Made by a program: the position numbers and the translations under genes
The notes under the pieces: generated by a model
Told to the model about the DNA's origin: nothing
The model's database searches: none
The model's input: the letters and a program-made list of their open reading frames with translations, nothing else
Part shown: positions 1-51,056 of the stretch, one piece after another
Layout of the letters: every line of letters starts with the position of its first letter
Numbering within the stretch: the first letter of the stretch is position 1
Assembly: GCA_964366535.1 (NCBI GenBank)
Contig: CAYIUC010000002.1
Span: 10,773 to 72,220, forward strand
DNA length: 61,448 nt
Direction: 5' to 3'
Source: an uncultured Candidatus Saccharibacteria bacterium
Lineage (GTDB): Bacteria > Patescibacteriota > Minisyncoccia > Phycocordibacterales > UBA10002

Positions 1-3
1 ACA

Positions 4-39
4 CTTATGATTAAGATACGATCGTAGCTTAATGATAAA
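4..39. repeat. 36-bp AT-rich near-palindrome, copy 1 (consensus CTTATGATTAAGATACGATCGTATCTTAATCATAAG)
   Basis: Read directly. Left arm perfect, right arm has 3 mismatches. Overlaps a TAAAAT -10-like box 14 nt before the ATG at 55. Other copies at 669-704 and 40806-40841. Confidence 0.8.
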
Positions 40-54
40 ATATGGGATAACGAT

Positions 55-648
55 ATGACATACCGAAAACGAAACAAAAAAGAGCACAGCAGGCCGAAAC
101 ATCGTGTGGGCCCCGTTCAACGAAAAATCTTACTGCTCCTTCTTGGCGGTCTTGCACTAGGATGTTCGGGCTCACCGAGCACCTCTTGGAAGATAATACG
201 AGCGATGCATAAAGAATGGAGAGACGTCAACAAACAAAACGCGGAGCGCGCGATTGCAGTTCTCTATAAAACAAAGCTAATAGAAGCGCGTAAAGATGAG
301 GGTGGAACGGTTACAATGGTTTTGAGCGATAACGGTAAAAAACGCGCGCTCACCTACAACCTCGGGACTATGCAGATTAAAAAGCCAGAAACATGGGACG
401 GGAATTGGCGTGTTGTACTGTTTGATATACCAGAAGAAAAACGCGGAGCGCGCGATTCCTTGCGTACGCGCCTTTTGAATCTCGGATTCTTTGAACTCCA
501 ACGCTCGGTACTGGTGCACCCTTATGAATGTCGTGATGAAATTGAATTCTTGATAGAAATGGGAGATATCCGCCCGTATGTCCGTTATATGCGCGCGCAC
601 CACATAGACAACGAACCGCATCTAAAAAGATTTTTCCGTATTGCCTGA
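55..648 (+). CDS. PaaX-like / Cas2-fold domain protein (putative DNA-binding regulator)
   Basis: 197-aa ORF. The segment WDGNWRVVLFDIPEEKRGARDSLRTRLLNLGFFELQRSVLVHPY resembles the PaaX C-terminal/Cas2-like family. Bracketed by the 36-bp palindromes. Confidence 0.55.
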   Translation: MTYRKRNKKEHSRPKHRVGPVQRKILLLLLGGLALGCSGSPSTSWKIIRAMHKEWRDVNKQNAERAIAVLYKTKLIEARKDEGGTVTMVLSDNGKKRALTYNLGTMQIKKPETWDGNWRVVLFDIPEEKRGARDSLRTRLLNLGFFELQRSVLVHPYECRDEIEFLIEMGDIRPYVRYMRAHHIDNEPHLKRFFRIA

Positions 649-668
649 CACTATTTTATCTACCCTAG

Positions 669-704
669 CTTATGATTAAGATACGATCGTATGTTAATCA
701 TAAG
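669..704. repeat. 36-bp AT-rich palindrome, copy 2 (best copy, one mismatched pair)
   Basis: cttatgattaagatacgatcgtatgttaatcataag read directly. Lies in the convergent spacer between the PaaX-like gene and ligA. Confidence 0.85.
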
Positions 705-761
705 TACAGAAAACTGATTTGGAATGTAGTACATATATGAAGTGAAGAAGCGGCTCAGGAT

Positions 762-8135: not shown

Positions 8136-8163
8136 AAACGGCTAAATGCGTGTTTAGCCGTTT
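8136..8163. terminator. hairpin AAACGGCTAAA-tgcgtg-TTTAGCCGTTT directly after the pilT stop; repeated at 33469-33496
   Basis: 11-bp stem flanked by A-run/T-run, so possibly bidirectional. A second, about 90% identical copy lies in the decayed DUF559 unit. Confidence 0.5.
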
Positions 8164-12006: not shown

Positions 12007-12072
12007 ACACCCCCTCTTCCCTCGTCCGCATTAGGCGGACTCGGGCTTTCTCCCCCTTAGGATAAGGGCGAG
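12007..12072 (+). repeat. double-hairpin repeat arm (forward orientation)
   Basis: acaccccctcttccctcGTCCGCattaGGCGGACtcgggctttctCCCCCTTAggaTAAGGGcgag. Confidence 0.75.
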
Positions 12073-12101
12073 AATAAGAAAGAGAAGTACAATACAAAGA
12101 T

Positions 12102-12458
12102 ATGCAGGTGCATAACAAACAAGAACTATACACGCGTAGAAAAAAGCTTCGTACGGGCGCAACGCTACAAGAAGCAAAACTGTGGGAACGCTTACGAAGA
12201 AAACAGTTGGGCTACAGATTCCGCAGGCAACATAGTGTCGGGTGGTACATTCTTGATTTTTATTGTCCAGAAAAGAAACTTGTCGTGGAGATTGACGGGG
12301 CGCCACACAAAGCAAGCAAGGAGTATGACGCGGTGCGCACGAACTACCTAAACCTACGCGGTATTCAGATACTGCGATTTTGGGATGATGAAGTGAGTAA
12401 CCATATTGAAAAAGTGGTATCAAAAATTAAAAATACTTTATGTCTTACCTGCCCTTAA
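12102..12458 (+). CDS. DUF559 (Vsr-like endonuclease fold) domain protein
   Basis: 118 aa. LRTGATLQEAKLWERLRRKQLGYRFRRQHSVGWYILDFYCPEKKLVVEIDGAPH...ILRFWDDEV. The stop codon lies inside the right arm. Confidence 0.85.
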   Translation: MQVHNKQELYTRRKKLRTGATLQEAKLWERLRRKQLGYRFRRQHSVGWYILDFYCPEKKLVVEIDGAPHKASKEYDAVRTNYLNLRGIQILRFWDDEVSNHIEKVVSKIKNTLCLTCP

Positions 12459-12500
12459 CCTAAGGGGAGGTGTCCGCCTGAGGCGGACGGAGGGGTGGTT
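12447..12500 (-). repeat. double-hairpin repeat arm (reverse orientation)
   Basis: acctgCCCTTAacctAAGGGgaggtGTCCGCCtgaGGCGGACggaggggtggtt. Confidence 0.75.
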
Positions 12501-12528
12501 TTATTTTTAGTGCGAGAAGGAAAATCTT

Positions 12529-25406: not shown

Positions 25407-25478
25407 ACGCCCGTAGCTCAATGGCAGAGCGTTCCGCTTATATCGGAATGGTTGGGGGTTCGAGTCCCTCCGGGCGTA
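25407..25478 (+). tRNA. tRNA-Ile with anticodon UAU (reads AUA)
   Basis: Cloverleaf folds by hand: acceptor ACGCCCG/CGGGCGT, D stem GCTC/GAGC, anticodon stem TTCCG/CGGAA with loop cTTATat, T arm GGGGGttcgagtCCCTC. Confidence 0.8.
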
Positions 25479-27213: not shown

Positions 27214-27990
27214 TCATATTTTTGTTAAAATTTCCGCCCCATGTTCAGTCACGACTATCGTATGTTCAAAGTGTGCGGCGCGGCTGCCATCTTTCGTACG
27301 ATAGGTGAAGCCGTCGGAATCTAAAACTACCTGTTCGCTGCCAAGCGTGAGCATCGGCTCCAAAGCGAGTACCATTCCCGCTTCCAACGGCACGCCGGTG
27401 CCGGGCTTGCCGTAGTTTGGCACGAGCGGCTTTTCGTGCACCGCTCTACCGACGCCATGCCCCGCGAGGTCTCGTACAATTCCGTAATTCCCTTCCTCGC
27501 GTACAAACGACTCTACGGCGAAACCAATGGCGCCCACTGTAGCGCCAGCGCGCGCCGCAGAAACGGCGCGCGCGAGGGCTTGTTTTGTTATTGCAATAAG
27601 CTTCTCCTCCACCGTGCCCACAGCTCCGACCGCAAGCGTTAGCGCCGCATCCGTGTAGAGCCCACGGTGTCGTAACCCTAAATCAATGCTCACGATATCG
27701 CCCTCGCGCAATACTTTATCCGCAGTCGGAAGCCCGTGCACCACTTCATCGTTTACCGACACGCAGAGTGCCGATGGAAACCTCTTTTTGTCTCCCCTCG
27801 CTTGATAATTAAGAAAAGACGGCGCATCGCCCCCTTCCGCAACCAAGCGGCGCGCGAGCGCATCTAGCGTTTCTGCCGACACGCCTTTGCGCACTGCATC
27901 TCCCACACGCAAAAGAATTGCAGCCAAGCGGCGGCCGCCTTCGCGCAAGATAGCAATTTCTTCAGGCGGTTTGACTGATGATGTCTGCAT
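27214..27990 (-). CDS. map: type I methionine aminopeptidase
   Basis: 258 aa with metal ligands in VHG...DIVSIDLG...GHGVG...LEP...EHT contexts. Confidence 0.95.
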   Translation of the reverse strand: MQTSSVKPPEEIAILREGGRRLAAILLRVGDAVRKGVSAETLDALARRLVAEGGDAPSFLNYQARGDKKRFPSALCVSVNDEVVHGLPTADKVLREGDIVSIDLGLRHRGLYTDAALTLAVGAVGTVEEKLIAITKQALARAVSAARAGATVGAIGFAVESFVREEGNYGIVRDLAGHGVGRAVHEKPLVPNYGKPGTGVPLEAGMVLALEPMLTLGSEQVVLDSDGFTYRTKDGSRAAHFEHTIVVTEHGAEILTKI

Positions 27991-28552
27991 GCACTTTTTC
28001 TATCTTTTGCTCGCCGTTTATATTGTGGAATACATAGTCGGCGTTTTCGTGATAAAAGCCGATAGCGGGAACAACTTCCGTTTCGTACCAGGCAAGCCGC
28101 CGTTCTACATCTTCCAGACTATCGTCGTGCCGTCCGCGCGCAATAAGCTTCTCACGCGCCCATTCGCGCGACACATTTAGGAAAAAGAGGTGTGGCTTTT
28201 CGCGTCTGAAAAATCCCATCACCGAGTCAAGCAGTTGCGCCTCAATGAGCCGCCGGGGCGTGCCGTCAAACATAAGGTGCATATCTTGGCCGAGATCGCG
28301 CACAAGGACCGACGACCATACCCATGCAATTAGAAACCCGGGCTGTAACCCACCTGCACCTGAAATAGTGCGGGCAAGATCTGCGGCGTAGCCATTCCCG
28401 TCTTTTATAAATGCGCGCACATGCGCACCTGTTTCAATAGCGAGTACCTTTCGGCTCGGGTCGTGCTTTTTTAAGTATTCCAAAAGCAGTGCGGCTTGCG
28501 TACCCTTCCCGCTCCCGCTCCTCCCGATAAACAAAAATGTCTGCGGTGTCAT
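27962..28552 (-). CDS. adk: adenylate kinase family protein (short, lid-less)
   Basis: P-loop GRSGSGKGTQA, then FDGTPRRLIEAQ and RGRHDD. Sits in the canonical position between secY and map. Start taken at MTPQTFLF. Confidence 0.75.
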   Translation of the reverse strand: MTPQTFLFIGRSGSGKGTQAALLLEYLKKHDPSRKVLAIETGAHVRAFIKDGNGYAADLARTISGAGGLQPGFLIAWVWSSVLVRDLGQDMHLMFDGTPRRLIEAQLLDSVMGFFRREKPHLFFLNVSREWAREKLIARGRHDDSLEDVERRLAWYETEVVPAIGFYHENADYVFHNINGEQKIEKVHADIISQTA

Positions 28553-28660
28553 GCGGGCAGTATAGCGCAAAAAATATATGGAACCAAATGCTTGACAAAT
28601 TATTCATTTAGAATGTAAAAACAAGAGCGGGGGGTAGGGTTTAGCGCATACATCCGAACT

Positions 28661-28716
28661 GACCCCTCTGCCTCGCTTACGCTTCGGCATCTCCCCTCTC
28701 AAAGAGGGGCGAAGGG
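28661..28716 (+). repeat. double-hairpin repeat arm (forward)
   Basis: gacccctctgcctcGCttacGCttcggcatCTCCCCTCTcaaAGAGGGGcGAaggg. Confidence 0.7.
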
Positions 28717-29067
28717 AACTTGCCTCTGCAAAGTTTGCATTATAACTGCAAGTACTTCTTCTAAATGCTTTTCGATTTCGTTGTCCCAGAATCTAAGAAC
28801 CGTTACGCCGCGTTCGCCCAAATAATCCGTTCGCACCTTATCATATTCTCTCTGCCGAGAATGATGCGAACCGTCAATTTCTATGGCGAGTTTCTTCGCA
28901 AAACAATAAAAATCTACAATGTACCAACCAATACTTTCTTGTCGACGAAATTTGAACCCAAGTTGATTTTTCCGTAGTCGCGCCCACAGTTTTATTTCTT
29001 GTGGCGTTGCGTCTTTCCGCAATTGTTGCCGACGCGCCTTCAACTCTTTTTTGTTATGCGTCGGCAT
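28699..29067 (-). CDS. DUF559 (Vsr-like endonuclease fold) domain protein, paralog 2
   Basis: MPTHNKKELKARRQQLRKDATPQEIKLWARLRKNQLGFKFRRQESIGWYIVDFYC...IEIDGSHH...VLRFWDNEI. About 58% identical to copy 1 by hand count. The track ORF extends into the arm (29169). Confidence 0.85.
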   Translation of the reverse strand: MPTHNKKELKARRQQLRKDATPQEIKLWARLRKNQLGFKFRRQESIGWYIVDFYCFAKKLAIEIDGSHHSRQREYDKVRTDYLGERGVTVLRFWDNEIEKHLEEVLAVIMQTLQRQVPFAPL

Positions 29068-29087
29068 AGTATCTATTGTACCTCTTC

Positions 29088-29148
29088 CTCCTCTCCCCCT
29101 TTTTGAAAGGGGGAGTACCCGAGCGAAAGCGAGGGGGTAGGGGTTAGC
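29088..29148 (-). repeat. double-hairpin repeat arm (reverse)
   Basis: ctcctCTCCCCCTTTttgAAAGGGGGAGtacCCGAGCGaaaGCGAGGGggtaggggttagc. Confidence 0.75.
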
Positions 29149-29187
29149 ATACCTACCAAGCACTTCCACTTGATGGGGAGAGGAATT

Positions 29188-30459
29188 TTAGTACTCCCGC
29201 ATCGCGACTTGCGCGTCAATCTTTTTAACAAGGTCAAGTACTACAGACACGGCGATAAGGAGCGCGGTGCCGCCGATTGCAAGATTGGTATTGCCGGTAA
29301 TGCCTTGCATCGCAAGCGGTAGAACGGCGACAAGCGCAAGAAACACCGCTCCAACGAGTGTGATGCGCGTAACAATCTTTCCGATATATTCCGCTGTCGC
29401 GCGACCAGGGCGCACGCCCGGTACGAATGCCCCGTTTTTCTGCAAGTTGGTCGCTACCGACTCTGGCTCAAAAGTTACAGCGGTGTAGAAGTATGTAAAT
29501 ACGAGCACGAGAATGAAATAGAGCGTTGAGTAAAACCATCCGTTAGAGAAAATAGCGAGAAGCCACGAAGAAATCGCCTGCACGGTCGGGTTCGCGATGT
29601 TTGCCGTAAAACTCAAAATCATTTGCGGAAAAAGCAAAATAGAAAGAGCAAAAATAATTGGAATGACACCTGCTTGGTTCACCCGCAAAGGTAGGTAGGT
29701 AGACACTCCGCCATACTGGCGCATCCCGCGCACGCGCTTCGCGTATGTTACGGGCACAGGCCGCTCCGCCTCGCTCACAAACACGACTCCGTACACGACA
29801 GCAAGAGCCGCCGCGAGAAACGCGGCGTATAGCGGAATCTGCGAAGCATCGAAAGAAACGGCGAGCGCCGCGATGCCTTTCGGAATGCCCGCGACGATAC
29901 CAGCGAAGATAATGAGCGACACTCCGCTCCCGATGCCAAACTCAGTAACCAGCTCGCCAATCCACATAAGCAGAAATGCGCCCGCCACGACGAGCGACAT
30001 ATTTATAAGCGTATCAAATGCGGCTAGGTCGCCGAGTACCCCCTGCCTCGAAAGAAGCACCAAAAATCCGAAGCTGGATAGAAGAGCGAGCGGGAGGGTC
30101 AGAAGGCGCGAGTATTGCGAAAATCGCTTCCTACCGAGCTCGCCCTCTTCGTGGTAAAGTGCTTTGAGCTTCGGGAACACCATAGTCATGAGTTGCATAA
30201 TGATAGAAGCGGTAATGTACGGACCGACGCCAAGCATTACGATAGACAAGTTGTCCAACCCGCCGCCCGAAAAAATATTGAAAAGCCCAAGAAATTGATT
30301 TGTCTCAAGAAGCCGTGCAAGCGCAACTTCATCTATACCAGGAATAGGAACTGCCGCCAGAAGTCGGAACAATACGAATGCGCCCGCCACAAACAAGAGG
30401 CGTTTGCGAAGCACGCCGTCCGAAAGAGCAAGTTTTAATTTTTGCCAAAAGGAATTCAT
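29188..30459 (-). CDS. secY: preprotein translocase subunit SecY
   Basis: 10-TM profile with a GIDEVALARLL...GVGPYITASIIMQL signature. The ATGA overlaps the rplO stop. Confidence 0.95.
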   Translation of the reverse strand: MNSFWQKLKLALSDGVLRKRLLFVAGAFVLFRLLAAVPIPGIDEVALARLLETNQFLGLFNIFSGGGLDNLSIVMLGVGPYITASIIMQLMTMVFPKLKALYHEEGELGRKRFSQYSRLLTLPLALLSSFGFLVLLSRQGVLGDLAAFDTLINMSLVVAGAFLLMWIGELVTEFGIGSGVSLIIFAGIVAGIPKGIAALAVSFDASQIPLYAAFLAAALAVVYGVVFVSEAERPVPVTYAKRVRGMRQYGGVSTYLPLRVNQAGVIPIIFALSILLFPQMILSFTANIANPTVQAISSWLLAIFSNGWFYSTLYFILVLVFTYFYTAVTFEPESVATNLQKNGAFVPGVRPGRATAEYIGKIVTRITLVGAVFLALVAVLPLAMQGITGNTNLAIGGTALLIAVSVVLDLVKKIDAQVAMREY

Positions 30460-32948: not shown

Positions 32949-33091
32949 AATAAAACTAGACGCCCAAAAGAGCGTCCATCTACCCTATCAAACCCCGCCC
33001 ATTTTGTCCATACCGATGAACCACCAACCCCTATCTGTTCTTGAGGCATTCTTCCAAGTATCTGCTATAGCAAGTAGTTGGGAGAATGTAA

Positions 33092-33157
33092 GACACCCCT
33101 CCCGCTTCGCCCCGCCAACCGGCGGGGCTTGTCCCTCCCCTTATGTTAAGGGCAGGG
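33092..33157 (+). repeat. double-hairpin repeat arm (forward)
   Basis: gacacccctcccgcttcGCCCCGCCaaccGGCGGGGCttgtCCCTCCCCTTatgttAAGGGcAGGG. Confidence 0.75.
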
Positions 33158-33159
33158 AA

Positions 33160-33465
33160 AAGAAAAAAGCGCACTCACAGAGTGCGCTCCGATAAGATGA
33201 TAGAGTGGTAATCTTTCGCGTCACCTACACCGTTTTTAGGGGTTTATGAGGTCGATTACACCCACCGATGGCAGTCGAGTCTACTGATTGGCCGCCGTCG
33301 ACATTGCCATTTGATCACATCTATTCTAGGGATTTTGATTGCTTATAAGATTTCTACAATCATTACCCCACGCTCTATTGACAGCATAGCAAACCATGTC
33401 CTAAAAGTCAAGCGTTGGTGCAACTTCATTTTGTTGATTGTCAGAAAACCCTTGTTTTGCAACAT
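33160..33465 (-). pseudogene. decayed DUF559 gene
   Basis: Minus-strand frame reads MLQNKGFLTINKMKLHQRLTFRTWFAMLSIERGVMIVEIL-stop, then AIKIPRIDV. Compare intact IKLW..QLGFKFRRQESIGWYIVDFYC and AKKLAIEIDG. DNA shares tctacaat..tacc with copy 2. Confidence 0.5.
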
Positions 33466-33506
33466 ATTAAACGGCTAAACGCGCGTTTAGCCGTTTTTGA
33501 TTACCG

Positions 33507-33580
33507 CCTGCCCTTTTCCAAAGGGGAGGTGGCGAGCCCCGCCACGCCGTAGGCGGGGCGGGGCGAGACGGAGGGGTTGT
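33507..33580 (-). repeat. double-hairpin repeat arm (reverse)
   Basis: cctgCCCTTttccAAAGGGgaggtggcgaGCCCCGCCacgccgtaGGCGGGGCggggcgagacggaggggttgtt. Confidence 0.75.
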
Positions 33581-33592
33581 TCCCGACTTGTA

Positions 33593-33661
33593 CTAACCCC
33601 CTCCCCCTCGTCCCGCTTACAGCGGGACTCGGGTACTCCCCCTTTCAAAAAGGGGGAGAGG
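33593..33661 (+). repeat. solo double-hairpin repeat (forward), back-to-back with the arm at 33507-33580
   Basis: ctaaccccctccccctcGTCCCGCttacaGCGGGACtcgggtaCTCCCCCTTTcaaaAAGGGGGAGagg. Closest to the arm at 29088-29148. Confidence 0.7.
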
Positions 33662-33671
33662 AAAAGTGTTT

Positions 33672-37738: not shown

Positions 37739-37782
37739 ATCCAAAGTATACCCGCGAATGTGATAGCATACAAAACACACAC

Positions 37783-37850
37783 AACCACCCCTCCGTCTCG
37801 CCCCGCCAATCGGCGGGGCTCGCCACCTCCCCTTAGGTAAAGGGCAGGGT
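37783..37850 (+). repeat. solo double-hairpin repeat (forward)
   Basis: aaccacccctccgtctcGCCCCGCCaatcGGCGGGGCtcgccaCCTCCCCTTaggtaAAGGGcAGGgtg. No inverted partner within 1 kb. Confidence 0.75.
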
Positions 37851-37934
37851 GAAAAATCTCTTATGTAAAAATAGATTCCGACCGTAATCTATTTCTACAT
37901 GGACATATTCGTGCGAATAAAAAGAAAAGAAAAA

Positions 37935-40793: not shown

Positions 40794-40805
40794 CCGCCTT
40801 CCCGA

Positions 40806-40841
40806 CTTATGTTTAAGCTACGATCGTATCTTAATAATAAA
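40806..40841. repeat. 36-bp AT-rich palindrome, copy 3 (more diverged)
   Basis: cttatgtttaagctacgatcgtatcttaataataaa, in the convergent spacer between recG and the RelE-like toxin. Confidence 0.75.
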
Positions 40842-47915: not shown

Positions 47916-50031
47916 CTTGCTCGTACATAAGTGTATACGCGTCTGCGCGAGAAAATAAACCGCGAGGTTCTACAAATACATAGTCGGCGATTGGTATAAC
48001 TTCTCCTGCACGAATCCGCATAGCATACTCACTAACGCGAAGAGTTAACTCTTCTTCAGGAATTATAGGTGGGGGCATTTTTGAAAAGAAACCATCGAAT
48101 GTGCGCGGGCGGTAAAACTCTTTAAATAGGTACAACGCATCGCGAGACACCCACACACGAAATTCGTCTTCAGATAAACCCCAAAGCGCCCCAAATGCAT
48201 ATGCGAGTTCCCATAGTTCTTCTTGAGATGCGAGCGTACTGAACCCATCCGTAACAAATGAACGATTCTCGGTAAACAATCTAAGCGCATAGTTGGTATG
48301 CGCCCGTTCGCTCGCCACCATTGACCCTGATGGCGTATGTTCGTTGAGCCACTGGTACGCATTTGCTTCGGGTATCGGTATGCCCCGTGTATGCGCTTCG
48401 TCACGGCTTAATCTGTACTGCCCGTAAAATGCGTGGGCGAAAAACAAAACAAGAAATGCGACGGCGTATATGCGAACCGTCCTTGCGGAAACACGCGACG
48501 CAAGATATCGCTTCCACAACCATACAACTACAACTCCGAATGCCAACATCACTGGCAAAAATGTCTCGCGATACCAATGGTCGGGCTGTGGCGAAAAGCC
48601 GAGTACTAATTGCACATTAACGACAACAAAATAAGCTGCGAGAAGAGAGATTAAAAACACCGCGGCAGATGAAAGGTGCTTTCTGGAAGCGTAGATAAGC
48701 GCGCCTATCCATACGAGATGCCGCGCGTATGTCTTCCACACCGACCCGAAGCGGAAATGCCGCCCGATTTCTACGCCCGCAATTCGAAACATAAGGTCTT
48801 CGTAGTGCGGCAAGCGGCGAAGCGCCGCAAAGTTGAACCAATACGGAATTGAGATAATGCCGCCAATACCAAAGATGCCCGCGCCTGACTTTACGGCGCG
48901 CCAATTGCGACGAAAAACAAACCATAAAATAGCGAGGACTAATGCAACCGTGAGATATGCCCAATCATAAAGATAAGTATAAAAGAGGATCCCAAAAAAT
49001 ACACCGCCGAAAACCACATCTCTCCTGACACCTGTGCGTAGAGCACGGAATATGAAAAGAAGCGCAATCGTATAAAAAATAAAGGTTATTTTCGGATATT
49101 CAAAACTTGAAAAATAAAGCAATGCGTTTTGCGGAAGAATAGAAACAGAAGGAGAAAGGAGCGCCGCAAGCGGCGATACCATAAAAACAGAAGCGAGCAG
49201 AAGCGCCGGCTTTGCGCGCCGAAATACCTCGCGCAAAAGCGCATACACCGCAAGGAAAATAAGCGGCGGGATTAAGAAATCGGAGACGATATAAGCGCGC
49301 TCCATGCTCAAAAGCGCCTTGCCAAGACCGCCCATAATCAAAGGATTCAATACCGGCAAGAGAGACGGCAACTCTAATTCGCCGCGCGCGAAGAAGGCAT
49401 TCGCGCGCGGCCCGTAGTAGCCGCCGGCGTCTGGATCGGACGCATAGGTAACCGGCGTGTATACTAACCCACCCGGCATAAAACTAGGCATAAGTAAGTG
49501 GTGTATGCCGTATAGCAGAGAAACGGCTAGCGCTACAACGAGCACGGCACGGTGAGATACGAAAAATGAACGCATGAGTACTGCCCAATGCGCAAGCGGC
49601 GATCGCGGATGGAAAATAACGAAGCGATATACGAAGAAGCTACCTACCGCGATCGTCGCGGCGGCAATGATCTGCGCGAAGAAGTACCAAAGCCCCGCCC
49701 ATTCCACGAGCGCGTACATAAAAGCGGCGTTGATTCCGATATTGGTGATTTGTAGTCCTAAATAAAAAGCGCTTTGTGTAGCAACGGCTTTTCCAGACGC
49801 GCTGCGATCTCCAAAGGTATAAAACTTCTGGAGTACAAAACTCACGACCACAGCCACGCAAAACGCCGCAGTGGCGGACACAAGATAGTGCCACCCGACA
49901 TACTCTGTCAGCGCAAACAGAATGCCAAGGTCAATGGCGGTAGAGGTACCGCCAGCAATAAGGTAACGGATGCCTATTGGAAGCCCGAATAAGAAATTGC
50001 GCATGCGAAGCATTATAACAGAGTGCGCCAT
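47887..50031 (-). CDS. GtrA-like domain fused to a large polytopic membrane domain (possible GT-C-type transferase)
   Basis: N-terminal about 140 aa reads IRYLIAGGTSTAIDLGILFAL...VVSFVLQKFYTF...FFVYRFVIF (GtrA family). More than 12 further TM segments and a soluble C-terminus follow. Confidence 0.55.
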   Translation of the reverse strand: MAHSVIMLRMRNFLFGLPIGIRYLIAGGTSTAIDLGILFALTEYVGWHYLVSATAAFCVAVVVSFVLQKFYTFGDRSASGKAVATQSAFYLGLQITNIGINAAFMYALVEWAGLWYFFAQIIAAATIAVGSFFVYRFVIFHPRSPLAHWAVLMRSFFVSHRAVLVVALAVSLLYGIHHLLMPSFMPGGLVYTPVTYASDPDAGGYYGPRANAFFARGELELPSLLPVLNPLIMGGLGKALLSMERAYIVSDFLIPPLIFLAVYALLREVFRRAKPALLLASVFMVSPLAALLSPSVSILPQNALLYFSSFEYPKITFIFYTIALLFIFRALRTGVRRDVVFGGVFFGILFYTYLYDWAYLTVALVLAILWFVFRRNWRAVKSGAGIFGIGGIISIPYWFNFAALRRLPHYEDLMFRIAGVEIGRHFRFGSVWKTYARHLVWIGALIYASRKHLSSAAVFLISLLAAYFVVVNVQLVLGFSPQPDHWYRETFLPVMLAFGVVVVWLWKRYLASRVSARTVRIYAVAFLVLFFAHAFYGQYRLSRDEAHTRGIPIPEANAYQWLNEHTPSGSMVASERAHTNYALRLFTENRSFVTDGFSTLASQEELWELAYAFGALWGLSEDEFRVWVSRDALYLFKEFYRPRTFDGFFSKMPPPIIPEEELTLRVSEYAMRIRAGEVIPIADYVFVEPRGLFSRADAYTLMYEQDGFRIYEKP

Positions 50032-51056
50032 TCCGCCGCCTGTTTCTGTATATGCGCTTGCGGCGATGGCAGCGCAAAGAAACTTGCGCGCGCCGCTTCT
50101 CCTAGCCGCACTCTTAACGGCTCATCAACAATGAACCGTTCCATTGCTGCAGCGAGCTCGCCTTCGCCGCCAATGGGAATCACGATTCCATTTTCTCCGT
50201 TTTGTATAAACTCTCCCGCACAGCCCACATCGGTCATTATAATCGGCAGTCCATATGCAGCCGCCTCCACAACCGCAACCCCCCACCCTTCGCTGTCGGA
50301 GGTGAGAAGAAACGCATCGGCCTCTTCGTAGAACAGCGCCAAATCTTTCTGCTGCCCCTCAAACACCACCCTATTCTCTGATTTTAAACTTTTGACCTGC
50401 GACTTTAGCCACCATTCCAGTATTCCACTACCAACAATCCGCAATCTCGCTTGTGGAAATTCCCGCACAATACGCGCGAGCGCGCGAATTTGCATTGCGA
50501 TATTCTTAACAGGCACCAGCCGCCCAACCGTTAGAAAAGTAAATGCGTTCCCTTCTGCCTCTCCACCTTTTCTAAGGGGGAGTACCCCGAGCGGAGCGAG
50601 GGGGGTGGAGGTGGTTTGGGTATATACAGGCAGTACATACACTTTCTCAGCCGATGCACCAAAATCAACGGCTAACTGCATTAGCCGTTGGCTTACTACC
50701 CTCACCTTGTCTGCACGGCGCAATACAAAACCGGCAATCATCTTTCGTATGCAGTGCAACTTTTCAAACCCGTGCACCTGGACCTCCAATGACGCATGGA
50801 ATCTACGCGCGACGAGATACGCGAGGAGCGCAAGGTACGCCGTGTCTTGCACGGTTACAATATCAAACTTATCTTCTATAAACGCGCGTCGCGCGCTCTT
50901 CCACAAACGCAAGAACTGCGATTGTCTACTCCCCGCGCCATCAGGTACAAATACGACAATCTCCACTGCCTCCTTCCGAAGCGCCGCGAGCCGCTCTGCG
51001 GCGAGCGTCCCCTCGCGCAGTATTTCCCCGTCCAAACTAAACATGCATATTCTCAT
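50013..51056 (-). CDS. GT4-family glycosyltransferase carrying an in-frame copy of the double-hairpin repeat
   Basis: FLTVGRLVPVKN...LTSDSEGWGVAVVEAAAYGLPII. The linker TTSTPLAPLGVLPLRKGGEAEG is encoded by the repeat at 50558-50616. Confidence 0.8.
   Translation of the reverse strand: MRICMFSLDGEILREGTLAAERLAALRKEAVEIVVFVPDGAGSRQSQFLRLWKSARRAFIEDKFDIVTVQDTAYLALLAYLVARRFHASLEVQVHGFEKLHCIRKMIAGFVLRRADKVRVVSQRLMQLAVDFGASAEKVYVLPVYTQTTSTPLAPLGVLPLRKGGEAEGNAFTFLTVGRLVPVKNIAMQIRALARIVREFPQARLRIVGSGILEWWLKSQVKSLKSENRVVFEGQQKDLALFYEEADAFLLTSDSEGWGVAVVEAAAYGLPIIMTDVGCAGEFIQNGENGIVIPIGGEGELAAAMERFIVDEPLRVRLGEAARASFFALPSPQAHIQKQAAEWRTLL
50558..50616 (-). repeat. double-hairpin repeat copy (reverse orientation) inside a CDS
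   Basis: gcctCTCCaCCTTTtctAAGGgGGAGtacCCCGAGCGgaGCGAGGGGggtggaggtgg, compared with 29088-29148. Confidence 0.7.

What the first reader, a model, noticed from the sequence alone, without database searches (positions are those of the whole stretch)
28627..29148. Second DUF559 cassette wedged between secY and adk in the spc cluster
secY-adk-map is one of the most conserved gene strings in bacteria. Here an approximately 488-bp unit separates secY from adk. It has a forward arm at 28661-28716, a DUF559 gene on the operon strand and a reverse arm at 29088-29148. An extra arm fragment (GGGGGGTAGGGTTTAGC, 28627-28646) lies just outside, which hints at repeated or nested insertion at this spot. The ORF track's longer N-terminus (RVLPLSKRGRGG) is simply the arm being translated.
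Basis: seen in the sequence. Interest (0 to 1): 0.65.

Follow-up and report, generated by a model that had tools for sequence, protein, structure and literature searches.

The report
Nuclease gene cassette inserted between secY and adk
A small nuclease gene of unknown function (DUF559), bracketed by inverted copies of a GC-rich hairpin repeat, was inserted between secY and adk in this Parcubacteria genome, and the same gene-plus-repeat pairing turns up across bacteria, including E. coli ycjD next to the unexplained "BoxC" repeats.

Summary
On the minus strand, secY (stop 29188) and adk (true ATG 28552) are 635 bp apart. Three close relatives have only 20-24 nt there.

The spacer holds:
- an intact 122-aa DUF559 gene (28699-29067);
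- two inverted ~63-nt arms (29086-29148 and 28656-28718);
- an arm fragment (28627-28646).

The arms belong to a nine-copy repeat family in the window. A second DUF559 cassette lies at 12007-12503.

The arms are a long-loop variant of a known repeat class, the BoxC / PIT / "triplex motif" elements. These are three-block C-C-G repeats whose function and origin are unknown.

In 80 unrelated metagenomic DUF559 loci (GC 31-72%), canonical motifs of this class flank 53 genes, usually as an inverted pair. E. coli's only DUF559 gene, ycjD, sits beside a perfect BoxC.

I found no paper linking the two, so the gene-repeat partnership looks undescribed. The protein is under purifying selection (dN/dS about 0.1) and is distantly related to the homing endonuclease I-Bth0305I.

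The best reading is an inserted nuclease-plus-repeat cassette whose nuclease acts on the repeats. The insertion is shown; the mechanism is inferred. adk probably keeps its own leaderless-type promoter.

The parts
29188..30459 (-). secY, the upstream flank. The ORF list extends it to 30516. The alignment with relatives starts at MNSFWQKL, position 30459.
   Evidence: Pfam SecY E=1.8e-100. 87-91% identity to L001-L004 and L038 over residues 1-423.
29175..29184 (-). Isolated C-rich block TCCTCTCCCC, 3 nt after the secY stop. It is perfectly complementary to the G-arm end of the upstream arm (29089-29098). It lies where L001 begins a full arm.
   Evidence: inverted pair I3, 10 nt, 100%. Compared with L001 5278-5335.
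29086..29148 (-). Upstream arm, read in operon orientation: C-tail CCCCTACCCCCTC, a short linker, then the terminal hairpin CTCCCCCTTT/AAAGGGGGAG.
   Evidence: nhmmer E=3.2e-12. Alignments A1 and A5. 35 nt are identical to arm 33628-33662 (I3).
29075..29080 (-). TACAAT, a -10-like box 7 nt upstream of the DUF559 ATG. It is conserved in all five close cassettes. Inferred to be the cassette's own promoter for a leaderless mRNA.
   Evidence: Read directly from the sequences: window; L071, L077, L078. No experimental support.
28699..29067 (-). DUF559 gene, 122 aa, a Vsr-like PD-(D/E)xK nuclease fold. Its last ~6 codons and the TGA stop lie inside the downstream arm's hairpin.
   Evidence: PF04480 at 121 bits. 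The invariant residues D52, E63, D65, H69 and R92 are kept. PDB 3HRL E=6.7e-32 and 3R3P E=2.4e-4. P0001 is the identical 122-aa product.
28656..28718 (+). Downstream arm, inverted relative to the upstream arm. [quoted passage not shown]
   Evidence: nhmmer E=4.6e-11. 39-nt inverted repeat, 77% complementary.
28627..28646 (-). Arm fragment holding only the C-tail end, GCTAAACCCTACCCCCC. It lies about 10 nt beyond the downstream arm. Read as the remnant of a further arm.
   Evidence: (D1, 94%). An analogous polymorphic 78-nt unit sits at the same relative position in L072, L074 and L075 but not in L071.
28559..28564 (-). TATACT box 6 nt upstream of the adk ATG (28552). Relatives with an empty site have TGCTATAAT, then 6 nt, then ATG. 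Inferred to be adk's own promoter.
   Evidence: Read directly from the sequences.
27962..28552 (-). adk, the downstream flank, with its start revised to ATG 28552.
   Evidence: PF00406. The N-terminus MTPQTFLFIG matches relatives.
12007..12503 (+). First DUF559 cassette: arm 12007-12079, TACAAT 12088-12093, gene 12102-12458, inverted arm 12443-12503. It lies between a response-regulator gene and a PilB-like ATPase gene.
   Evidence: 57% amino-acid and 62% nucleotide identity to the secY-adk copy.
33090..33665 (.). Three more arms in the L5-S14 spacer: 33090-33163 (+), 33501-33582 (-) and 33593-33665 (+). The last two form an adjacent inverted pair with no gene between them.
37780..37855 (+). 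Solo arm upstream of a ZIP transporter gene.
   Evidence: nhmmer E=1.3e-15..
50554..50613 (-). Arm lying in frame inside a GT4 glycosyltransferase ORF.

Best explanation
SHOWN.
- The secY-adk spacer of this Parcubacteria genome holds a lineage-specific insertion. The genome is closest to Candidatus Taylorbacteria RIFCSPLOWO2_01_FULL_48_100.
- The insertion is a 0.5-kb cassette: an intact DUF559 (Vsr-like PD-(D/E)xK) nuclease gene under selection, bracketed by two inverted copies of a ~60-nt G/C-rich repeat.
- Each arm is a C-tail, a variable linker or hairpin, and a conserved hairpin whose 5' half is C-rich.
- This is the three-block C-C-G design of the published BoxC / PIT / triplex-motif repeats, here with an enlarged second loop.
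- The same gene-between-inverted-repeats design recurs in unrelated bacteria.

INFERRED.
1. The cassette is a unit that relocates. It probably entered through recombination or break repair at arm repeats already sitting at this junction. The nearest relative carries a gene-less inverted arm pair exactly there.
2. The DUF559 protein is the nuclease that recognises and nicks these repeats. It would act either on their sequence or on the hairpin/triplex structure they extrude. Cleavage would drive copying, loss and rearrangement of the repeats and of the gene nested between them. This works like the REP/RAYT partnership, or like a free-standing homing endonuclease whose target is a dispersed repeat.
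3. The cassette has its own leaderless promoter (TACAAT, 7 nt, ATG). Its stop codon lies inside the distal arm.
4. adk keeps its own -10 box 6 nt before its ATG. The insertion therefore need not disturb adk-map expression, which fits how often this junction tolerates inserts.
For: Insertion.
- Empty sites of 20-24 nt in L003, L004 and L038. No DUF559 gene in any of 70 related loci.
- L001 (90% SecY identity) has two arms of the same family but no gene at this junction.

Repeat family and mobility.
- Nine arms in the window at E<=3e-10.
- The terminal hairpin is kept by compensatory changes: 4 of 9 pairs change on both sides, 88.9% of cells are paired, and 0 of 500 shuffles reach this.
- 35 nt are identical between arms 4.5 kb apart, while the two genes are only 62% identical at nucleotide level.
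- A 78-nt arm unit is present or absent in otherwise identical strain sequences.

The gene is functional.
- All invariant residues are kept.
- dN/dS is 0.10 among syntenic orthologues.

The cassette is a unit.
- In the relatives' genomes the closest homologues lie between groES and secG. They have the same arms, the same TACAAT leader, and the stop codon in the arm.
- The two window copies sit at different, non-syntenic sites.

General gene-repeat link, from 80 metagenome loci of GC 31-72%.
- CCCTCC-type hexamers are 12-15x enriched in the flanks.
- Hairpins with a C-rich 5' half occur at 4.8/kb in the flanks, 0.23/kb in all background, and 0.99/kb in intergenic-like background.
- Canonical three-block motifs flank 53 of 80 genes, at 2.70/kb against 0.106/kb.
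- Orientation is biased: 39:9 upstream and 13:29 downstream, which makes an inverted pair.

E. coli.
- Its sole DUF559 gene, ycjD, is adjacent to a perfect TMECO/BoxC motif and ends in a degenerate one.
- The motif class, its 23 copies in K-12 and its unknown function are described in PMC4666352.
- Sampled ycjD+ chromosomes carry 14-27 copies (median 20, n=37). ycjD- chromosomes carry 1-21 (median 11, n=21), p=1e-8.

Nuclease kinship. PDB 3HRL E=6.7e-32. Homing endonuclease I-Bth0305I (3R3P) E=2.4e-4.
Against: - No biochemical or genetic evidence exists that any DUF559 protein binds or cuts these repeats.
- The two window copies differ by 43% in protein sequence, so the gene has not spread recently within this genome.
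- The groES-secG copy is syntenic across several species under purifying selection. That looks more like a resident gene than an active selfish element.
- No target-site duplication or clean insertion junction could be defined. The flanks have diverged too far (Adk only 54-67% identical).
- The window lineage has the arms in the opposite orientation (tails outward) to the majority layout, so one mechanism may not cover both.
- The window's arms do not meet the published short-loop triplex definition.
- The E. coli copy-number contrast is confounded by phylogroup. ycjD- strains are B2, E and similar groups, and they carry the eef operon at that locus.
- The promoter assignments are sequence motifs only.
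Confidence: 0.6

Rival explanations
1. Free-standing homing-type endonuclease gene. DUF559 cuts a gene-less inverted arm pair, and break repair copies the gene into its centre. The repeats are only the target and the homology arms. They spread by other means.
For: - Profile similarity to the I-Bth0305I catalytic domain.
- In the majority layout the gene sits exactly in the centre of an inverted motif pair.
- Gene-less inverted pairs exist: L001 5278-5404 at this very junction, window 33501-33665, and five pairs in E. coli K-12 (PMC4666352).
Against: - The protein is only the ~115-aa catalytic core, with no added DNA-binding domain of the kind a site-specific homing enzyme needs.
- There are few gene copies, and they are old (57% identity between the window copies).
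- In the window lineage the gene lies between arm pairs, not inside one.
- Purifying selection and synteny at groES-secG.
Confidence: 0.2
2. DUF559 is a resident host DNA-repair or structure-processing nuclease. The flanking repeats are its cis-regulatory elements, for example a hairpin that sequesters the G-rich ribosome-binding site, or a 5'-3' pairing that limits translation of a toxic nuclease. The secY-adk copy arose by ordinary duplication or recombination.
For: - dN/dS is about 0.1, and the location is conserved across species.
- In many loci the G-tail lies 3-30 nt before the ATG and could serve as the Shine-Dalgarno sequence. The downstream C-tail is complementary to it.
- There is a single copy in E. 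coli.
Against: - Repeats without a gene outnumber those with one: 5 of 9 arms in the window, and 23 in K-12 against one ycjD.
- One arm sits inside a coding sequence.
- The arm unit shows a presence/absence polymorphism.
- Arms are homogenised independently of the gene.
- Gene locations differ between close relatives.
Confidence: 0.12
3. Coincidence of two junk-tolerant features. The arms are autonomous MITE/REP-like repeats mobilised by an unrelated enzyme. DUF559 genes merely share the same permissive intergenic sites.
For: - The secY-adk junction accepts many unrelated inserts in this clade. Examples are toxin-antitoxin-like genes, a transposase-like ORF, a 952-aa ATPase, and purD with kinases.
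- Solo arms occur elsewhere in the window.
Against: - The oriented inverted-pair architecture is tied to the start and stop codons in 53 of 80 loci across GC 31-72%.
- Flank density is 5-fold above intergenic-like background.
- The stop codon is conserved inside the arm.
- The same pairing occurs in E. coli. With about 23 motifs in 4.6 Mb, the chance of one lying within 200 bp of a given gene is about 0.003 (my estimate).
- No transposase is associated with these repeats (PMC4666352).
Confidence: 0.08

Closest known systems
BoxC / PIT (potential intrastrand triplex) / TMECO triplex-motif repeats (Bergler 1992; Hoyne & Maher 2000, 2002; Holder et al. 2015, PMC4666352)
   Same: - G/C-rich dispersed repeats built of three blocks: C-G-G on one strand and C-C-G on the other.
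- The C block and the first G block form a hairpin.
- Mostly intergenic, often in inverted pairs, and linked to local rearrangement.
- No known protein partner.
- Canonical motifs of exactly this type flank DUF559 genes in 53 of 80 metagenome loci and flank E. coli ycjD.
   Different: - The window's arms have 13-45 nt, often a further hairpin, where the published definition allows a loop of 1-6 nt. They are not detected by a canonical scan.
- Mirror versus direct symmetry of the third block could not be resolved.
- One copy lies in a coding sequence.
- The published work reports no associated nuclease or mobility gene and does not mention ycjD or DUF559.
REP/REPIN elements and their RAYT transposase
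   Same: A single or low-copy nuclease gene is flanked by inverted copies of the genome's own short palindromic dispersed repeat. Gene-less inverted doublets are scattered elsewhere. The gene is vertically inherited and under selection.
   Different: - RAYT is an HUH/Y1 single-strand transposase of IS200/IS605 descent. DUF559 is a Vsr-like PD-(D/E)xK nuclease.
- The repeat sequences are unrelated.
- No activity has been shown here.
I-Bth0305I and other free-standing homing endonuclease genes (for example the phage T4 seg and mob genes)
   Same: A Vsr-like catalytic core (3R3P, E=2.4e-4). A small nuclease gene wedged between conserved genes and absent from close relatives.
   Different: - I-Bth0305I sits in a group I intron and carries an N-terminal DNA-binding region.
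- This protein is the bare ~115-aa domain, is not in an intron or intein, and is flanked by repeats.
E. coli YcjD (NCBIfam NF007294; PDB 3HRL is a Neisseria homologue)
   Same: Same Pfam family and size. The stop codon overlaps a C-rich repeat, and a BoxC lies next to the gene. It occupies a variable locus: it replaces the eef operon between sapF and fabI in phylogroups A, B1 and C (PMC12817139).
   Different: The window protein scores 96 bits against an equivalog cut-off of 218, so it is a family member, not a YcjD orthologue. E. coli shows repeats only downstream of the gene.
Rickettsia palindromic elements (RPE)
   Same: A short palindromic repeat can insert in frame into a protein-coding gene, as the arm does in the GT4 ORF at 50554-50613.
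   Different: Unrelated sequence. RPEs have no associated nuclease gene.

Membership tests
DUF559 (PF04480), Vsr-like PD-(D/E)xK nucleases | Pfam model matched above its gathering score over its full length | tested here: met
   121 bits against 20.6, profile positions 2-109 of 109.
DUF559 (PF04480), Vsr-like PD-(D/E)xK nucleases | Conserved core residues retained | tested here: met
   D52, E63, D65, H69, R92 and the other 17 invariant columns of a 22-sequence alignment are present.
DUF559 (PF04480), Vsr-like PD-(D/E)xK nucleases | Nuclease activity | not testable with these tools
   Needs biochemistry.
YcjD equivalog (NCBIfam NF007294) | Score above the curated equivalog cut-off | tested here: not met
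   96.2 bits against a cut-off of 218.
BoxC / PIT / triplex-motif repeats | Three consecutive homopurine/homopyrimidine blocks (C-C-G or C-G-G), two of which form a hairpin | tested here: met
   C-tail, C-arm and G-arm are present in all nine arms. The hairpin is supported by covariation.
BoxC / PIT / triplex-motif repeats | Short loops (1-6 nt) between blocks, as in the pattern CCCTCNCCC N3-6 GGGNGAGGG N3 GGGNGAGGG (PMC4666352) | tested here: not met
   A canonical scan finds none in the window. The second loop is 13-45 nt. The feature is met in 53 of 80 other DUF559 loci and next to E. coli ycjD.
BoxC / PIT / triplex-motif repeats | Third block is a mirror repeat of the second, as an antiparallel purine triplex requires | tested here: inconclusive
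   Mirror and direct matches score equally in the short C-rich blocks. In the metagenome flanks there are 90 mirror-type against 46 direct-type hits, with overlap.
BoxC / PIT / triplex-motif repeats | Multi-copy, dispersed, often in inverted pairs | tested here: met
   Nine copies in 61 kb. Inverted pairs at 33501-33665 and around both genes.
BoxC / PIT / triplex-motif repeats | Forms an intrastrand triplex | not testable with these tools
   Needs CD/NMR or footprinting.
REP/RAYT system | Associated gene encodes an HUH/Y1 (IS200/IS605-type) transposase | tested here: not met
   The only Pfam hits are DUF559 and MTES_1575 restriction-endonuclease-like domains.
REP/RAYT system | Gene flanked by inverted copies of the genome's dispersed palindromic repeat | tested here: met
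Homing endonuclease (I-Bth0305I family) | Catalytic-domain homology | tested here: inconclusive
   Profile hit to 3R3P at E=2.4e-4, 24 bits, over about 70 residues. This is distant.
Homing endonuclease (I-Bth0305I family) | Resides in an intron or intein, or has an extra DNA-recognition domain | tested here: not met
   A free-standing 122-aa protein that is all catalytic core.
IS element / MITE | Transposase gene (IS), or terminal inverted repeats with a target-site duplication (MITE) | tested here: not met
   There is no transposase domain. The only direct repeat at the borders is the 16-17-nt arm fragment, which is part of the repeat itself.
Intrinsic terminator | GC-rich hairpin followed by a T-run | tested here: not met
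   No terminator-like site at either arm. No T-run in the sequence.
Any Rfam RNA family | Covariance-model match | tested here: not met
   Nothing at gathering score in the arms. Only sub-threshold noise at E>=0.28.

The most novel reading that the evidence does not exclude
Solo DUF559 (YcjD-type) nucleases are the missing protein partner of the BoxC / PIT / triplex-motif repeats across bacteria, from Patescibacteria to E. coli. This would be a second nuclease-plus-satellite-repeat system, independent of REP/RAYT and built on a Vsr-like PD-(D/E)xK enzyme. The enzyme would recognise a hairpin- or triplex-forming G/C-rich element. It would account for the origin, copy-number swings and local genome instability of these repeats.
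Probability: 0.4. Interest if true: 0.8.

Novelty: new variant of a known kind. Interest (0 to 1): 0.62.

Why it matters
BoxC/PIT/triplex-motif repeats have been known in E. coli since 1992. They were shown to fold into triplexes in vitro and to mark unstable loci. No function, origin or associated protein has been found, and the main study states that no mobility gene was ever seen near them (PMC4666352).

DUF559 is a widespread family with no assigned role. If the two are partners, both puzzles become testable in E. coli K-12. That strain has one gene (ycjD), 23 repeats and natural ycjD-minus lineages.

For this window, the result explains why a highly conserved operon junction is interrupted. 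The junction tolerates inserts because adk appears to carry its own promoter. The result also shows that streamlined Patescibacteria genomes carry an active short-repeat family, which even enters coding sequences.

Tried and rejected
- Exact-sequence look-up of the 442-aa SecY ORF found nothing, because the start codon was called too far upstream. I used a pattern-based locus search instead.
- Rfam at gathering score and at E<=5 finds no RNA family for the arms.
- Terminator reading rejected: no T-runs, and no scan hit at the arms.
- The promoter scan found only weak sigma-70-like sites inside the gene and upstream of adk. I relied instead on conserved -10 boxes read from alignments.
- I looked for a target-site duplication. 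Only the arm fragment repeats, so no clean junction can be defined.
- I tested whether the 340-nt cargo between arms in the L5-S14 spacer is a decayed DUF559 gene. tblastn and a profile search of all six frames find only the two known copies.
- The mirror versus direct symmetry test on the window's arms was uninformative.
- PADLOC gives only marginal hits to restriction-type nuclease folds, and no defence system is indicated.
- Literature searches on DUF559, ycjD, COG2852, BoxC and intrastrand triplex found no paper linking the gene family to the repeats. The library lacks most subscription journals, so prior description cannot be excluded.
Full report
**What is at the site.** The ribosomal-protein/secY operon runs on the minus strand. 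The gene order is L15, secY (stop TAA 29190-29188), a DUF559 ORF, adk, then map.
- The DUF559 ORF matches PF04480 over the whole model (121 bits).
- The long ORF form (156 aa from GTG 29169) is an artefact. The database holds exactly the 122-aa product that starts at ATG 29067 (P0001), and 21 homologues align from that methionine.
- adk is also over-extended in the ORF list. Relatives begin MxPQTF(L/M)FIG, which corresponds to ATG 28552.
- The secY-adk spacer is therefore 635 bp.

**The arms.**
- The two arms pair over 39 nt at 77%.
- A profile built from nine similar stretches finds exactly those nine in the window, at E=1e-15 to 3e-10, and nothing else below E=0.08.
- They lie at 12007-12079 and 12443-12503 (around a second DUF559 gene), 28656-28718 and 29086-29148 (this finding), three in the L5-S14 spacer, one solo at 37780-37855, and one inside a glycosyltransferase ORF.
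- Each arm has a C-rich tail (ACCCCTCC-like), a linker that is often a hairpin of variable length, and a terminal hairpin CTCCCCTT-loop-AAGGGGAG.
- That hairpin is maintained by compensatory changes. Four of nine pairs change on both sides, 88.9% of cells pair, no shuffle out of 500 reaches this, and shifted registers score lower.
- The fragment at 28627-28646 reproduces the tail end of an arm.
- No Rfam family matches, and the arms lack terminator T-runs.

**It is an insertion.** A SecY-based search returned 70 species-level relatives, all Parcubacteria-type. The closest is Candidatus Taylorbacteria RIFCSPLOWO2_01_FULL_48_100 (L001) at 90% identity.
- None has a DUF559 gene within 4 kb.
- L003, L004 and L038 (87-89% SecY identity) have TAA, then 20-24 nt, then the adk ATG.
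- L001 has a 622-bp spacer. It opens with two arms of this same family in inverted orientation with no gene between them, followed by an unrelated small ORF.
- The junction is generally permissive. In 44 relatives the spacer runs from 11 to 3461 nt (median 112). Ten exceed 300 nt and carry diverse cargo.
- A likely reason is visible in the sequence. The empty sites read TGCTATAAT, then 6 nt, then ATG. The window reads TATACT, then 6 nt, then ATG. adk therefore appears to have its own -10 box placed for a leaderless transcript. This is inference from motifs only.

**The cassette as a unit.**
- The nearest homologues (59-62% identity to this copy, 67-68% to the 12-kb copy) come from the genomes of L004, L038 and relatives.
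- There they sit between groES and secG. They have the same arm family on both sides, the same TACAAT box 6-8 nt before the ATG, and the stop codon inside the distal arm's hairpin.
- These syntenic orthologues evolve at dN/dS of about 0.10, and all invariant family residues are kept in the window copy. The protein is therefore functional.
- The window's two copies sit at other, non-syntenic places, secY-adk and a pilus-gene region. The cassette has thus relocated on an evolutionary time scale, but not recently: the two copies are 57% identical.
- The arms turn over faster. 35 nt are identical between arms at 29089 and 33628. A 78-nt arm unit is present or precisely absent in strains that encode the identical DUF559 protein. 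It lies right beside the outer end of the downstream arm, the same relative position as the window's fragment.

**What the arms are.**
- In more distant DUF559 loci (Portnoybacteria, Moranbacteria) and in 80 metagenome loci of GC 31-72%, the flanks carry the same motif vocabulary.
- CCCTCC-type hexamers are 12-15x enriched.
- Hairpins with a C-rich 5' half occur at 4.8/kb in the flanks. Background is 0.23/kb overall and 0.99/kb in intergenic-like sequence.
- The typical form is hairpin CCCTCCCC-loop-GGGGAGGG, then 2-3 nt, then GGGAGGGG just before the ATG. Its reverse complement follows the stop codon.
- E. coli K-12's only DUF559 gene, ycjD, ends inside a degenerate copy. It is followed by CCCTCGCCCCTCTGGGGAGAGGGTTAGGGTGAGGGG. 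That sequence occurs a median of 17 times per genome in 5,426 E. coli genomes.
- This is the published BoxC / PIT / TMECO "triplex motif", CCCTCNCCC N3-6 GGGNGAGGG N3 GGGNGAGGG. According to PMC4666352, it was first noticed upstream of envM (fabI). It has 23 copies in K-12, five of them as inverted pairs. It forms a triplex in vitro and marks unstable loci. Its function is unknown, and no transposase or integrase was ever found nearby.
- That paper does not mention ycjD, DUF559 or any endonuclease.
- A scan for the canonical three-block motif finds it next to 53 of 80 DUF559 genes (2.70/kb against 0.106/kb). The G-rich strand is the coding strand upstream in 39 of 48 cases. It is the non-coding strand downstream in 29 of 42. 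This makes an inverted pair around the gene.
- The window's arms have the same three blocks but a long second loop, so the canonical scan does not detect them. Their tails point outward, the opposite of the majority layout. I therefore call them a variant, not a member by the published definition.

**E. coli as a natural experiment (partly followed).**
- ycjD is present in 3,378 of 5,426 complete genomes.
- In an evenly spaced sample, ycjD+ chromosomes have 14-27 motif copies (median 20, n=37). ycjD- chromosomes have 1-21 (median 11, n=21; ten have four or fewer). Mann-Whitney p=1e-8.
- ycjD- strains (CFT073, O157:H7) carry the eef efflux operon at sapF-fabI instead.
- A 2026 study reports that ycjD replaced eef at least twice (PMC12817139).
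- The contrast is suggestive, but it is confounded by phylogroup.

**Mechanism.**
- Shown: an inserted, intact nuclease gene under selection, bracketed by inverted copies of a dispersed, structurally conserved repeat. The pairing recurs across phyla.
- Inferred: the nuclease acts on the repeats. The family's only relatives with known activity are Vsr, a sequence- and mismatch-specific nicking enzyme (established knowledge), and the homing endonuclease I-Bth0305I (3R3P, E=2.4e-4). The closest solved structure is 3HRL.
- I consider a REP/RAYT-like partnership, or homing into repeat pairs, the most likely mode of action. The cassette would have reached secY-adk through arms already resident there, as in L001.
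- The rivals are a pure homing gene, a host repair gene with cis-regulatory hairpins, and coincidence. They are weighed in their own sections.

**Limits.**
- There is no activity data and no clean insertion junction.
- Promoters are assigned by motif only.
- The background for the enrichment test is small (8 kb of intergenic-like sequence).
- The paper library omits most subscription journals, so an earlier description of the DUF559-BoxC link cannot be ruled out.

Noticed in passing
window 50013-51056 (-), arm at 50554-50613: A family-4 glycosyltransferase ORF contains one arm in frame. The arm adds 21 residues (TTSTPLAPLGVLPLRKGGEAE) between the two Rossmann domains, much as Rickettsia palindromic elements insert into genes. 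It was not checked against homologues.
   Followed up: partly
window 32949-33671 (between rplE and rpsN): The L5-S14 spacer is about 720 bp. It holds three arms and a 340-nt ORF-less cargo (33164-33500) in the same arm-cargo-arm layout. The cargo has terminator-like hairpins at both ends and could be a small RNA. It is not a DUF559 remnant and has no Rfam match. Its hairpin at 33469-33496 recurs at 8136-8163.
   Followed up: partly
window 3-705 and 40805-40840: An ORF with a PaaX central (Cas2-like) domain (55-648) is flanked by 43-nt inverted repeats of a different family (ACTTATGATTAAGATACGATCG...). A third copy lies at 40805-40840. This may be another small cassette type.
   Followed up: no
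window 29089-29123 and 33628-33662: 35 nt are identical between two arms 4.5 kb apart, while the two DUF559 genes share only 62% nucleotide identity. The repeats are copied or homogenised much faster than the gene.
   Followed up: partly
window 28553-28564, 29068-29080, 12088-12101; L003, L004, L038 secY-adk spacers: TATAAT-like boxes lie 6-8 nt upstream of the ATG of adk and of both DUF559 genes, with no Shine-Dalgarno sequence. This suggests leaderless transcripts are common in this lineage.
   Followed up: no
L071 3400 versus L072 3401-3478 (also L074, L075): A 78-nt arm-type unit is present or precisely absent in otherwise identical sequence from strains that encode the same DUF559 protein. 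The borders lie in G-rich tails, so either insertion or slippage deletion is possible.
   Followed up: yes
L001-L070, downstream of secY: secY-adk is not a fixed junction in Parcubacteria. The spacer runs from 11 to 3461 nt. Inserts include toxin-antitoxin-like genes (L018), a transposase-like ORF (L050), a 952-aa ATPase (L024), and purD with two guanylate-kinase-like genes (L010).
   Followed up: partly
window 37868-37900; L002 5400-5436: A hairpin (GTAGAAATAGATTNCGACCGTAATCTATTTCTAC) next to the solo arm in the window also occurs just downstream of secY in relative L002. This is a further small repeat family.
   Followed up: no
L165 (E. coli K-12 1351000-1351800), L166, L167: - ycjD is followed by a partial duplicate of its own 3' end and by a perfect BoxC.
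- ycjD is missing from 38% of complete E. coli genomes, which have the eef operon at that locus.
- Sampled ycjD- genomes carry fewer BoxC copies (median 11 against 20). This is not corrected for phylogeny.
   Followed up: partly
window 25407-25478: A tRNA-Ile gene with anticodon TAT, an uncommon way for bacteria to read AUA.
   Followed up: no
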